Origin: Escherichia coli
Lineage (GTDB): Bacteria; Pseudomonadota; Gammaproteobacteria; Enterobacterales; Enterobacteriaceae
Assembly (NCBI RefSeq): GCF_016903815.1
Contig: NZ_CP069973.1
Strand: one strand, 5' to 3'
Length of the DNA: 64,000 nt
Position numbers: made by a program
Part shown: positions 35,101 through 38,100 of the stretch, piece after piece
Layout: each line of letters opens with the position of its first letter
Numbering within the stretch: the first letter of the stretch is position 1

Positions 35101-38100
35101 TTTTGCGGGCTCGTCTCAACCAGCAATTGCGCTATGATGTCATCATCTGCAAGCGCGCCCGCGACCTGGGAAAGTAAACGGATATGAGTGGTATTTTGAT
35201 CTTCAAGACGTACCGCAAATAAAATAATACAGCGTACGCTACTGCCATCCAGTGTTTCCCAGGGAATATCCTGCCGGGTACGCCCGATAGCCAGCGTGGT
35301 ATTAATTACCGCAGAAGATTTACCATGCGGGATCGCAATATGATTTTCAAAACCAGTCGAGCCTTCCGCTTCGCGCTGCCAGACATCTTTAATAAAGGTT
35401 TCCCGACAATCGATCGCACCATCTTTTTTGAGAAGATTAGTTAATTCTTCAATCGCCTCCGCTTTATTCGTCGCTTGCATATCTAAAATAACGCGATTCG
35501 TATTCAGGATTTTTGTTATGTCCATTCGTCATACCTCATAAAATTCTGACATTAAATTTCAACGACCCGAGATGTCGCATGATGTAATTTTTCCGTAATC
35601 ACCATTTCAGTGACTCGCTTAATATCGGCATCATTAAAAAAAGCGGTAACATAAGCGACCGGCATAGTGACTGTAGGCAAATTAATGGTCGAAATAATCA
35701 GTTCGATATTGTCAGGCAAAACCTGTGATAAATTCGCTGCTGAAATAACATCAACAATCGTCCATTCAGGAAATGCTCGCAGAATACGGCTTTTCAGTAG
35801 ATGCGAAGTTCCGATTCCGGTTGAACAGACCAGTAATACACGTTTACGGGCAATTTGCCGCTCCATCGCAGCCTGAAAATGAACGGTCAGGTAACCTACT
35901 TCATCCTCGCTCACTGCATTCTCACCCCAGGTTTTAAATACCTGATTCACCACATATTGCGTCAACCGCCAGACATCCGCTAATTCTGCTTTAATATCTT
36001 CCAGCAATGGATTACGGATATGAATGCGATAATTTAGTCGGTTAATCAGCGGCTTAATATGAACCAACAAGCCATCATATAATGCGCTGTCTTCACTAAA
36101 ATCGCAGTCCACGATGTCACTGAATACCGTAATTAAACGCCAGGTAATCAGACGCGCTTCATTGCTGGCCTGCATATGTGAAATAATGCTAACATCTTTT
36201 TGTCCATCAATCGCCACACCTGATGAAATGATATATTGATAAATAAACCAGACTTCATCATCGGGCAATGTATGTGCAATTCGTTGTTCTATCTTATGAA
36301 TCATCTGACTGGCAACATTAAAGATATTTTCATCATATTGCCTGGTTTGATCTTCTTCTCTGGATAACGCATTCCCGTGCGTGTTGCGATACATCATAAT
36401 AAGGATGTGAGTAAAAATGTTAACGTAATAAGGCTCTCCCAAAGACCAACTTAATTCATTTTCCATATCCAGTAACAATGACTGGACAAATAACACCTCT
36501 TCTTCTCCAAAATAATGGACTAATGCTTTATAACTTCCGGGATCCAGACGTGAATACACGACACCTTGCGGCTCATTATGGTTAATAATGCCGTTAATCA
36601 GTAATGCCATTGCCTGTCGGACTTGCCCTTCACTACCTTCAATATGCGTACCACTTGGGCTGCGGATCAATGATAACCCCAACGGCGCAAGCCAGGACTC
36701 AATCACTCTCAGGTCATTAACAATAGAGGCTCCACTGATAAAATAGCGCTCTGACAATTTACTGATCGACGTTTCATTCGGTGTTTCACTTAATAACTGC
36801 GACGCTATTTTAACGCGCCTGGCATTATTCATTACACCATCAATCTCTTCACATTCTGCTCCCAACAAATGATCAAGATGCAGCAAATCAGTAATATTCT
36901 TCGAGTCTAACATCACACCTGCGCCAGCACGCTTCTCAACGGTTATTCGCCATTGTTCCAGCCATTGCTCAAGTAAACGTAAATCACGTTGAATGGTTTT
37001 TTCCGAAACATTTAAATAGCCGGCAATCGTAACAATAGTCGTATATTCCCTTCGTGGTAAAAGGAATCGTAATAATCTGTTTTGTCGCGAGGTAATCATT
37101 TGCATTTTTTACCCTTATCACAGATTAAGAAGCCCCATGTGGAAGAGCTTCAGTTGCCATCTCTGAGGGTAAATATAAAGCAGAATAATTTCACAACAAT
37201 ACTAAAATCTGTCCGTAGTCCGGACATGTATAAAACAAAACGGGGCGGTTAATAGATATTTTTCGGCACAGATCACATTTTCGTGATGAATAATCGTGAT
37301 CATGCTCGCAAATACGATGGAAGAAATATTTATTACCAGATGTGAGATTATTTACCGGATACGACACAAAACCATTCGTATCCGGCATTCTTCAATAGAT
37401 TACAACGTAATTGTCAGCGCATTCCCTTGAGGAGTCACCACCAGTCCCTGCTCACTTTCAGCCTGCGAACCACCTTGCAGACCATTTACTTTCACAATAT
37501 TGCGCAAGCACAGTGTCCAGTTCTTCGCCTCGCCCGCACCAGTCACAGTAATCGTGTTGCCAGTACGCGCCGCTTTCAGGGTGAAAAGAACGGAACCGTC
37601 AGCAGCGGGCACTTCACAGATGGCTTCATGCCCGTCTTGTAGATTAAAGAGCTGGAATGCCGTGCCTTCGTGCCACGCGTAATCGGGACGTTGCTCGTTG
37701 TTGCCCAGCGCCAGTAGGGTGTTATCACGCACATAAACGGGCAGACTCAGGAAGCTGTGCTGCTGTTTATGCCAGCGACTACCATCGAGTTCATCGTTGT
37801 GCCACAGGTGTGTCCAGCGACCTTCAGGCAAGTAGAACTGCACATCGCCCGCTTCAGTGAACACAGGCGCAACCATCACGTTGTCGCCTAACATGTATTG
37901 ACGGTCAAGGTAATCACAAGCCGGATCGTCCGGAAACTCCATCATCATGGCCCGCATCATCGGCGTACCCCGCGCGTTCGCACGAGCAGCTTCACGATAC
38001 AGATAAGGCATCATGCGGCATTTCAGTTGCGTGAAGAAGCGCACCACATCACAGGACTCATCATCGTAGGCCCACGGCACACGATAAGATTTGCTGCCAT

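What the first reader, a model, noticed from the sequence alone, without database searches (positions are those of the whole stretch)
37191..37388. Cys/His-containing 65-codon ORF in the yicI / frz-regulator intergenic region
A minus-strand ORF (…HRICEHDHDYSSRKCDLCRK…) lies upstream of the PRD regulator gene, in the same orientation, overlapping a hairpin that probably terminates yicI. It might be a small zinc-binding leader protein, but it has no obvious ribosome-binding site and may be non-coding.
Basis: seen in the sequence. Interest (0 to 1): 0.2.

Follow-up and report, generated by a model that had tools for sequence, protein, structure and literature searches.

The report
Chance ORF over frz promoter region
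The 65-codon Cys/His ORF is real as a string of codons, but it is almost certainly not a gene: it is a chance reading frame across the hairpin that ends yicI and the conserved control region of the frz sugar operon, and about 80% of frz-carrying E. coli have a stop codon in it.

Summary
The ORF exists exactly as described (37191-37388, minus strand, 65 codons), between yicI and the PRD regulator gene frzR. Of about 1,600 frz-positive complete E. coli genomes, 262 carry the open allele (CGA at codon 42) and 1,284 carry TGA there. TGA is also found in a cryptic Escherichia clade, so the open frame is a recent, lineage-specific change. In Citrobacter, Kosakonia, Phytobacter, Superficieibacter and Buttiauxella the same DNA is about 70% conserved upstream of frzR, but the frame is broken by stops and 1-nt indels. 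Variation shows no codon periodicity, and conservation falls in short blocks. The ORF has no Shine-Dalgarno sequence. Its ATG and first 11 codons are the yicI 3' hairpin, which also exists in frz-negative K-12. Its codon usage is non-genic, no Pfam hit passes threshold, and it has no homologue outside E. coli. RefSeq annotates nothing there in any of the 60 records sampled. What the ORF overlies is the frz control region: two CRP-like sites, a conserved palindrome (TGTCC-N7/8-GGACA) beside a weak -35, and a conserved -10. The Cys and His codons are TGTGA/TCAC motifs read in frame. The finding is ordinary and of low interest.

The parts
37191..37388 (-). The 65-codon ORF of the finding. It is judged a chance ORF, not a gene.
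   Evidence: coordinates and translation. (TGA at codon 42 in 1,284 of about 1,600 frz+ genomes). (frame broken in other genera, no codon periodicity). (non-genic codon usage).
37263..37265 (-). Codon 42. It is CGA in the window allele (262 genomes) and TGA in the majority alleles (1,154 + 130 genomes).
   Evidence: T is also present in Escherichia sp. MOD1 and most other genera, so C is the derived state.
37353..37387 (-). yicI 3' hairpin (12-bp stem, 11-nt loop, no U-tract). It encodes the ATG and codons 1-11 of the ORF and is homologous to the yicH/yicI convergent-gene hairpin of K-12.
   Evidence: -18.3 kcal/mol, z = -3.3; K-12 version -23 and -20.4 on its two strands. (the same base pair is G-C in K-12, G.U in the MOD1 clade and A-U in the window). 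(the L007 change keeps the pair as G.U).
37146..37314 (-). Block upstream of frzR conserved across genera at about 68-75% nucleotide identity. It is read here as the frz control region.
   Evidence: blastn to 20 loci from 5 other genera. (alignments). The upstream neighbour gene differs between genera, so the block travels with frz, not with yicI.
37295..37310 (-). CRP-like site 1: TGCGA-GCATGA-TCACG, 2 mismatches to TGTGA-N6-TCACA.
   Evidence: match listed; the pattern itself is not enriched in the window. (conserved; the left half is TGTGA in both Superficieibacter sequences, though one search shows it for only one because the other was cut short).
37262..37277 (-). CRP-like site 2: AAATGTGATCT, a perfect consensus left half with a poor right half (CCGAA). 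Together with site 1 it forms an inverted repeat GCATGATCAC...GTGATCTGTGC.
   Evidence: TGTGATC invariant in 18 sequences. (the inverted-repeat pair changes from G-C to A-T on both sides in Escherichia).
37210..37226 (.). Palindrome TGTCCG-GACTA-CGGACA, the candidate operator for FrzR. The scan flagged it as terminator-like.
   Evidence: (one copy per frz locus, always upstream of frzR). (half-sites near-invariant; a perfect 18-bp palindrome TGTCCGGAATTCCGGACA in Superficieibacter).
37194..37209 (-). Block GATTTTAGTATTGTTG, whose core TTTAGTATTGT is invariant in the aligned sequences. It contains the putative -35 (TTGTTG, 37194-37199). The ORF's stop codon (37191-37193) follows directly.
   Evidence: The -35 assignment is an inference from the conserved 16-17 nt spacing to the -10.
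37172..37177 (-). Putative -10 hexamer TATATT, within the conserved run TTATATTTA.
   Evidence: conserved; the consensus scan did not call a promoter (8 of 12 in E. coli), as expected for an activator-dependent promoter. No transcription start site is known.
37129..37151 (-). Hairpin in the presumed frzR 5'UTR (GAAGCUCU...GGGGCUUC).
   Evidence: whole UTR -21.5 kcal/mol, z = -2.8. Similar GGAGC...GCUUC hairpins can be seen by eye in other genera, but RNAalifold found no consensus.
37112..37116 (-). Shine-Dalgarno sequence AAGGG of frzR, for contrast with the ORF, which has none.
   Evidence: TAAGGGTAAA is invariant or nearly so across all 18 sequences.
35552..37105 (-). frzR: HTH_11 + Mga HTH + 2 PRD + PTS-IIB-like. 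It is a DNA-binding PRD activator type, not a CAT-domain RNA antiterminator.
   Evidence: Pfam. (PGAP name 'BglG family transcription antiterminator').

Best explanation
The 65-codon ORF is a fortuitous open frame with no product. It runs across two functional non-coding elements. The first is the stable hairpin just downstream of the yicI stop codon, an older element also present in frz-negative E. coli. It supplies the ATG and codons 1-11. The second is the control region of the frz operon, which moves with frzR between genera. Read in the direction of transcription, this region contains two CRP-like sites 33 bp apart. Next comes a short variable stretch, then a conserved palindrome TGTCC-N7/8-GGACA about two helical turns upstream of a weak -35 (TTGTTG). 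A conserved -10 (TATATT) follows, then a roughly 65-nt leader and the frzR ribosome-binding site. The likely mechanism is an activator-dependent sigma-70 promoter. FrzR, a PTS-controlled PRD activator with HTH domains, would bind the palindrome, and cAMP-CRP would bind the upstream sites. The 'Cys/His-rich' look of the peptide comes from those motifs read in frame: TGTGAT gives Cys-Asp, TTTGCGAG gives Ile-Cys-Glu, and GATCAC gives Asp-His. The frame reaches 65 codons only in a minority E. coli lineage, where a T-to-C change turned the ancestral TGA at codon 42 into CGA. What is shown: the ORF's lack of conservation, the allele counts, the conserved blocks, and FrzR's domain make-up. What is inferred: the promoter position, and which proteins bind which motif.
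For: Frame within E. coli:
- 262 genomes carry the exact CGA 45-mer.
- 1,154 + 130 = 1,284 genomes carry TGA alleles.
- All six sampled non-window alleles translate with a stop at codon 42.

Frame between genera:
- In-frame stops and 1-nt indels occur in all five other genera.
- The MOD1 cryptic clade also has TGA.

Substitution pattern:
- Variable columns number 22, 26 and 24 at codon positions 1, 2 and 3.
- Conservation falls in contiguous blocks.

Coding signals:
- The codon-usage score is -0.061 per codon. That is below all 204 in-frame windows of real genes and in the middle of the spurious-ORF distribution.
- GC is 37%, against 51% for yicI.
- There is no SD sequence, and the ATG sits at the foot of the hairpin stem.

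Homology and annotation:
- Only two protein clusters match, both E. coli 'hypothetical', out of 5.8 billion sequences.
- The only Pfam hit is sub-threshold.
- RefSeq PGAP annotates nothing under the region in any of the 60 sampled records, including ten that carry the open allele.

Regulatory reading:
- The block is conserved upstream of frzR in 20 loci from other genera even though the upstream gene differs.
- The palindrome occurs once per locus.
- FrzR has HTH_11 + Mga + PRD x2 + IIB-like domains.
- The ATG and hairpin pre-exist in K-12.
Against: - The first 41 codons are nucleotide-invariant in the E. coli alleles sampled, apart from one non-synonymous change in the hairpin arm (L007). Selection on that part therefore cannot be tested within the species.
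- The ATG lies only 11 nt after the yicI stop codon, so termination-reinitiation without an SD is physically conceivable.
- Automated pipelines have called the exact 65-aa sequence a 'hypothetical protein' on 571 contigs.
- No consensus sigma-70 promoter was found by the scan in E. coli, Kosakonia or Citrobacter.
- The CRP pattern at 2 mismatches or fewer is no more frequent in the window than in shuffles.
- No transcription start site or binding data were available, so the promoter and operator assignments rest on conservation alone.
Confidence: 0.88

Rival explanations
1. The 65-aa peptide is a real, very young (de novo) small protein made only in the lineage with the CGA allele. It would be translated by reinitiation after the yicI stop codon 11 nt upstream.
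For: The frame is intact and identical in about 262 genomes. The ATG is close to the yicI stop. The sequence contains one CxxC plus nearby His residues, and there is a weak C1_2 hit at E = 0.019.
Against: There is no SD sequence, and the ATG sits at the foot of a -18 kcal/mol hairpin that probably marks the 3' end of the yicJI transcript. Codon usage is non-genic. The frame was opened by a single derived substitution. Frameshifted and alternative-start variants exist among the few gene calls. PGAP does not call it even where it is intact.
Confidence: 0.03
2. The shorter 41-codon ORF (MPDTNG...KCDLC*), present in all sampled frz-positive E. coli alleles, is the functional unit, for example a leader peptide.
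For: Its 123 nt are nearly invariant in the seven E. coli and MOD1 alleles compared. It has been called as a protein on 26 contigs.
Against: Codons 1-25 come from E. coli-specific junction DNA and the yicI hairpin, and have no counterpart in other genera. Codons 26-41 coincide with the two CRP-like motifs, and in Kosakonia, Phytobacter and Buttiauxella the homologous frame carries stops. The same lack of an RBS applies. The invariance is equally explained by low within-species diversity and constraint on the DNA motifs.
Confidence: 0.03
3. The conserved block is a transcribed leader RNA. Transcription would start upstream of the TGTCC...GGACA hairpin. That hairpin and the following U-rich run would act as an attenuator that is read through under inducing conditions.
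For: The scan flags the hairpin plus GATTTTAGTA as terminator-like. PGAP names FrzR a 'BglG family transcription antiterminator'. CRP-like site 2 would lie near -41.5 of a start at about 37228.
Against: FrzR has HTH_11 and Mga DNA-binding domains and no CAT RNA-binding domain. The stem bases are near-invariant with no compensatory changes, and the non-U bases of the 'tail' (TTTAGTATTGT) are invariant. In Superficieibacter the palindrome runs through the 'loop', which suits a DNA dimer site and not an RNA hairpin. The hairpin is weak (-9.5 kcal/mol, z = -1.95). Rfam finds nothing.
Confidence: 0.07

Closest known systems
Spurious 'hypothetical protein' ORFs called by automated pipelines in AT-rich intergenic regulatory DNA
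   Same: It is short, has no RBS, shows non-genic codon usage, is confined to one species, and is called inconsistently (571 contigs in mixed public sets, none in the 60 current RefSeq records sampled). It is broken by a stop in most strains.
   Different: Nothing of substance. The only unusual point is that the Cys/His content can be traced to TGTGA/TCAC motifs.
Promoters controlled by PRD-containing DNA-binding activators of the MtlR/LicR/ManR type (Bacillus mtlA, licB and manP promoters; comparison from general knowledge, not tested here)
   Same: The regulator has the same domain order: HTH, Mga-like HTH, two PRDs, then a PTS-IIB-like domain. A conserved dyad sits just upstream of a weak -35, and there is a candidate catabolite-control site further upstream.
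   Different: FrzR is shorter (517 aa) and no C-terminal EIIA-like domain was detected. The host is an enterobacterium, so catabolite control would run through CRP and not CcpA/cre. Neither the operator nor the transcription start has been mapped.
The yicH/yicI convergent-gene hairpin of E. coli K-12
   Same: It occupies the same position, 12-13 nt after the yicI stop, and has homologous arms with compensatory changes. It folds stably on both strands.
   Different: In frz-positive strains the loop is 11 nt instead of 7, and yicH is about 7.2 kb away, so the hairpin now separates yicI from the frz promoter. No version has a U-tract.

Membership tests
Protein-coding small ORF / leader peptide | Reading frame kept open in orthologous loci | tested here: not met
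   TGA at codon 42 in 1,284 of about 1,600 frz+ E. coli genomes. Stops and frameshifting indels in 5 other genera and TGA in the MOD1 clade.
Protein-coding small ORF / leader peptide | Substitutions concentrated at third codon positions | tested here: not met
   Variable columns 22, 26 and 24 and entropy 0.48, 0.57 and 0.56 at positions 1, 2 and 3.
Protein-coding small ORF / leader peptide | Shine-Dalgarno sequence 5-9 nt before an accessible start codon | tested here: not met
   The upstream sequence is TCTATTGAAGA-ATG, and the ATG abuts the stem of a -18.3 kcal/mol hairpin. By contrast frzR has TAAGGGTAAAAA-ATG.
Protein-coding small ORF / leader peptide | Codon usage like the host's genes | tested here: not met
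   -0.061 per codon, against a real-gene minimum of -0.029 and mean of 0.253.
Zinc-binding domain (zinc ribbon / C1-like) | Profile match above the curated threshold, with two Cys/His knuckles conserved | tested here: not met
   C1_2 scores 15.7 bits against a cut-off of 26. There is only one CxxC (CDLC), and most strains have a stop directly after it.
Intrinsic (Rho-independent) terminator, for the hairpin 37353-37387 | Stable G+C-rich stem-loop | tested here: met
   12 bp, -18.3 kcal/mol, z = -3.3. Compensatory changes between K-12, the MOD1 clade and the window.
Intrinsic (Rho-independent) terminator, for the hairpin 37353-37387 | Run of U directly after the stem | tested here: not met
   The tail is UAAAUAAUCUC, and the scan did not call it. 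In the Citrobacter MGH106 and Superficieibacter loci (L016, L025, L026), the gene in the same upstream position as yicI is followed by a G+C-rich hairpin at this position, with a T run after it in L016 and L025.
CRP-binding site | Match to TGTGA-N6-TCACA | tested here: inconclusive
   Site 1 has 2 mismatches. Site 2 has a perfect left half only. The pattern is not enriched in the window (27 found, 29.4 expected). The motifs are conserved across genera.
CRP-binding site | cAMP-CRP binding and cAMP-dependent expression | not testable with these tools
   Needs EMSA or footprinting, or crp/cya mutants.
Sigma-70 promoter | -35 and -10 hexamers with 16-18 nt spacing | tested here: inconclusive
   TTGTTG-16-TATATT is 8 of 12, below the scan threshold. 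The hexamers and spacing are conserved in 6 genera. No transcription start data.
PRD-activator-controlled operon (MtlR/LicR type) | Regulator with HTH + Mga + PRD1 + PRD2 + EIIB-like domains | tested here: met
   Pfam HTH_11, Mga, PRD (2 stretches) and PTS_IIB.
PRD-activator-controlled operon (MtlR/LicR type) | Regulator binds a dyad upstream of the promoter | not testable with these tools
   Only a conserved single-copy palindrome is shown.

The most novel reading that the evidence does not exclude
In the roughly 16% of frz-positive E. coli with the CGA allele, the ORF is a newborn (de novo) small protein. It would be translated by reinitiation after yicI from read-through transcripts, giving a snapshot of gene birth from promoter DNA.
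Probability: 0.03. Interest if true: 0.45.

Novelty: not a real feature. Interest (0 to 1): 0.06.

Why it matters
The main value is as a clean negative. It removes a tempting 'zinc-finger-like' small ORF from further consideration, and it shows how TGTGA/TCAC regulatory motifs can mimic a Cys/His-rich peptide when read in frame. As a by-product, the comparison outlines the apparently uncharacterised control region of frz, an operon linked to ExPEC fitness (PMC12928451, PMC8777976). That outline gives specific motifs to mutate: the TGTCC-N7/8-GGACA palindrome, two CRP-like sites and the -10.

Tried and rejected
- Rfam at a permissive E-value over 36800-37700 found nothing relevant: one 14-bit hit to a eukaryotic lncRNA model.
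- The sigma-70 consensus scan found no promoter in E. coli, Kosakonia or Citrobacter.
- RNAalifold on the conserved block returned only the two inverted repeats, with a negligible covariation term of -0.23.
- RNAalifold on the presumed 5'UTR returned no structure because the 3' arms misaligned. The UTR hairpin is therefore left unproven.
- The CRP pattern search showed no enrichment over shuffles, so the CRP assignment rests on conservation only.
- The original frz paper (Rouquet et al. 2009, PMC2698472) is not in the held library. Searches for FrzR, frz promoter and yicJI returned nothing on the promoter.
- A sigma-54 promoter and a BglG-type RAT element were checked by eye against remembered consensus sequences and rejected. 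The GG/GC spacing is wrong, there is no RAT-like complementarity, and FrzR has no CAT or AAA+ domain among the Pfam matches.
- About 54 frz-positive genomes carry a further allele of the 45-mer that was not resolved.

Full report
**Observation**

It fills most of the 294-nt gap between yicI (37400-39718) and a 517-aa regulator gene (35552-37105). Both genes are on the minus strand, and the regulator is followed by PTS IIA, IIB, IIC, aldolase and ROK-kinase genes. This is the frz operon layout, and an identical RefSeq genome annotates it the same way.

The ORF's ATG and first 11 codons are a 12-bp hairpin (37353-37387; -18.3 kcal/mol, z = -3.3). There is no Shine-Dalgarno sequence. The upstream sequence is TCTATTGAAGA-ATG, whereas frzR has TAAGGGTAAAAA-ATG.

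An ORF of this length is not unusual here. 7.7% of dinucleotide-preserving shuffles of the intergenic region (37% GC) give an ORF of at least 65 codons, and 4.3% give one starting with ATG. The window holds 125 ORFs of 65-120 aa, far more than its genes of that size can account for.

**Conservation within E. coli**

The intergenic region is present in 1,600 of 5,426 complete E. coli genomes. All other genomes match only from about 37377 upward, which is the yicI side.

The region falls into two main allele classes: 264 genomes are at least 99% identical to the window, and 1,335 are about 96-97% identical. Six sampled members of the second class all have TGA in place of CGA at codon 42 (window 37263-37265). 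Allele-specific 45-mer searches give the counts below.

| Allele at codon 42 | Genomes |
|---|---|
| CGA (frame open, window type) | 262 |
| TGC TGA | 1,154 |
| TGT TGA | 130 |
| Unresolved | about 54 |

The frame is therefore closed in about 80% of frz-positive E. coli and open in about 16%.

RefSeq PGAP annotates nothing under the region in any of the 60 records sampled, including ten that carry the open allele. Mixed public protein sets do contain the exact 65-aa sequence as a 'hypothetical protein' on 571 contigs, and the 41-aa form on 26. The only two related clusters among 5.8 billion proteins are E. coli variants, one with a different start and one with a frameshifted tail. The only Pfam hit is sub-threshold: C1_2, 15.7 bits against a cut-off of 26.

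**Conservation beyond E. coli**

A scan of one genome per species with FrzR returned 21 loci. They come from a cryptic Escherichia clade (97% amino-acid identity) and from Kosakonia, Phytobacter, Citrobacter, Superficieibacter and Buttiauxella (70-79%).

The DNA upstream of frzR is conserved at about 68-75% identity over the part that corresponds to window 37146-37314. The upstream neighbour gene differs between genera: a yicI-like gene in Citrobacter and an unrelated 364-aa ORF in Kosakonia. The block therefore belongs to frz, not to yicI.

The ORF's frame is not kept in these genera. Kosakonia and most Phytobacter have a stop at codon 34. Every genus has 1-nt indels relative to E. coli, and Superficieibacter and Buttiauxella carry further stops. 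The cryptic clade also has TGA at codon 42, and most genera have T at that site. The C in the window lineage is therefore derived.

Variation shows no codon periodicity: 22, 26 and 24 variable columns at codon positions 1, 2 and 3. Codon usage scores -0.061 per codon. That is below every one of 204 in-frame 65-codon windows from real genes in this window, and in the middle of the distribution for spurious ORFs.

**What the DNA is**

Conservation falls in contiguous blocks. In the direction of transcription they are:

1. TGCGA-N6-TCACG (37295-37310). This is a CRP-like site with 2 mismatches. In Superficieibacter the left half is TGTGA.
2. AAATGTGATCT (within 37262-37277). This is a perfect CRP left half with a poor right half. 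Its centre lies 33 bp from the centre of the first site.
3. These two sites also form an inverted repeat. One of its pairs changes on both sides in Escherichia.
4. A short variable stretch. It contains almost all of the differences between the two E. coli alleles within the ORF; the remaining one or two lie in the 5' leader.
5. The palindrome TGTCC-N7/8-GGACA (37210-37226). It occurs exactly once per frz locus. It is a perfect 18-bp palindrome in Superficieibacter.
6. The block GATTTTAGTATTGTTG (37194-37209), whose core TTTAGTATTGT is invariant. It contains a weak -35, TTGTTG (37194-37199). The ORF's stop codon follows directly.
7. A conserved TATATT 16-17 nt further on (37172-37177).
8. A leader of about 65 nt with a possible hairpin (37129-37151), and then the invariant TAAGGGTAAA ribosome-binding site.

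FrzR has HTH_11, Mga-HTH, two PRD domains and a PTS-IIB-like domain, and no CAT domain among the Pfam matches. It is therefore a DNA-binding PRD activator, despite the PGAP name 'antiterminator'.

The best-supported model is an activator-dependent sigma-70 promoter with a FrzR operator (the palindrome) and upstream CRP sites. This part is inferred. No consensus promoter was called by the scan. The CRP pattern is not enriched in the window. No transcription-start or binding data could be found.

The Cys and His codons of the ORF are these motifs read in frame. TTTGCGAG gives Ile-Cys-Glu, GATCAC gives Asp-His, and TGTGATCTGTGC gives Cys-Asp-Leu-Cys.

**The hairpin**

K-12 has a homologous hairpin between the convergent genes yicH and yicI, and it folds stably on both strands. 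One base pair is G-C in K-12, G.U in the cryptic clade and A-U in the window. A rare E. coli variant keeps another pair as G.U.

The ATG exists in K-12 too, where it opens a 21-codon frame running antisense into yicH.

The hairpin lacks a U-tract and was not called as a terminator. It may be a Rho-independent terminator of unusual form, a 3'-end stabiliser, or part of a Rho-dependent end. In some Citrobacter and Superficieibacter loci, the gene in the same upstream position as yicI is followed by a G+C-rich hairpin at this spot, with a T run after it in two of them.

**Rivals**

- *A newborn protein in the CGA lineage, or a functional 41-codon peptide.* These cannot be formally excluded without expression data, because the ATG is only 11 nt past the yicI stop. 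Every available indicator argues against them.
- *A leader-RNA attenuator built on the TGTCC...GGACA hairpin.* This is disfavoured for five reasons:
  - The stem bases and the non-U tail bases are conserved, with no compensatory changes.
  - The palindrome extends through the 'loop' in Superficieibacter.
  - The fold is weak, at z = -1.95.
  - FrzR's domains are DNA-binding.
  - Rfam finds nothing.

**Verdict**

The region is ordinary regulatory DNA (the frz control region) together with the yicI 3' hairpin. Interest is low.

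Noticed in passing
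L019, L020, L021, L023, L028 (Citrobacter), about 130-210 nt inserted 40 nt upstream of frzR: An ERIC-like repeat (…GAATCCCCTGAGCGTACATAAGTACGTGACTGGGGTGAGCG…) is inserted in the presumed frzR 5' leader of several Citrobacter species. It sits between the conserved GCTTC and the ribosome-binding region. The element was identified from memory of the ERIC consensus, not tested.
   Followed up: no
L009 (E. coli GN04171), locus 1453-2500; corresponds to window about 37336 leftward: An IS1 insertion with a deletion removes the 5' part of frzR and the whole frz control region. Only the 64 nt next to yicI remain, so this is a natural frz-regulator knockout in a blood isolate.
   Followed up: partly
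L008 (E. coli clone D i14); also hits H88 and H89; window about 37123-37134: A 12-nt deletion (GCTTCTTAATCT) in the frzR 5' leader removes the 3' arm of the possible leader hairpin in some B2 strains.
   Followed up: partly
window 37210-37266: Almost all of the 10-14 differences between the two E. coli alleles cluster in about 57 nt, between CRP-like site 2 and the palindrome. The remaining one or two lie in the 5' leader. The 133 nt next to yicI are invariant apart from one L007 change. The window allele resembles the cryptic-clade (MOD1) allele across this patch. That suggests a recombination patch or a less constrained spacer.
   Followed up: partly
L001 (strain 7/2, identical to the window over the 501-nt query 37000-37500), between frzR and yicI: The RefSeq locus tags jump from RS20340 to RS20350. 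A feature numbered RS20345 between frzR and yicI may have been called once and later dropped.
   Followed up: no
window about 41403-41497 and 41797-42981 (from L001 annotation, offset +30999): tRNA-Sec (selC) is followed by a tyrosine recombinase/integrase and a TPR protein. This looks like a selC-associated island starting just beyond yicJ.
   Followed up: no
window 37129-37151 and homologous positions in L010-L030: A hairpin of the form G(A/G)AGC…GCUUC about 25 nt upstream of the frzR ribosome-binding site recurs in several genera, with different inner pairs. RNAalifold could not confirm it because the alignment is poor.
   Followed up: partly
L035 (E. coli E1624): yicI is annotated as a pseudogene with an internal stop in this frz-negative diarrhoeal isolate.
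   Followed up: no
window 30120-37376: Relative to K-12, the frz segment is a 7.26-kb insertion. It lies between the yicH stop codon and the yicI hairpin and replaces 27 nt of K-12 sequence. BLAST places the right-hand junction inside the hairpin loop, but both hairpin arms are homologous to K-12. The true junction is therefore probably just left of the hairpin, at about 37350.
   Followed up: partly
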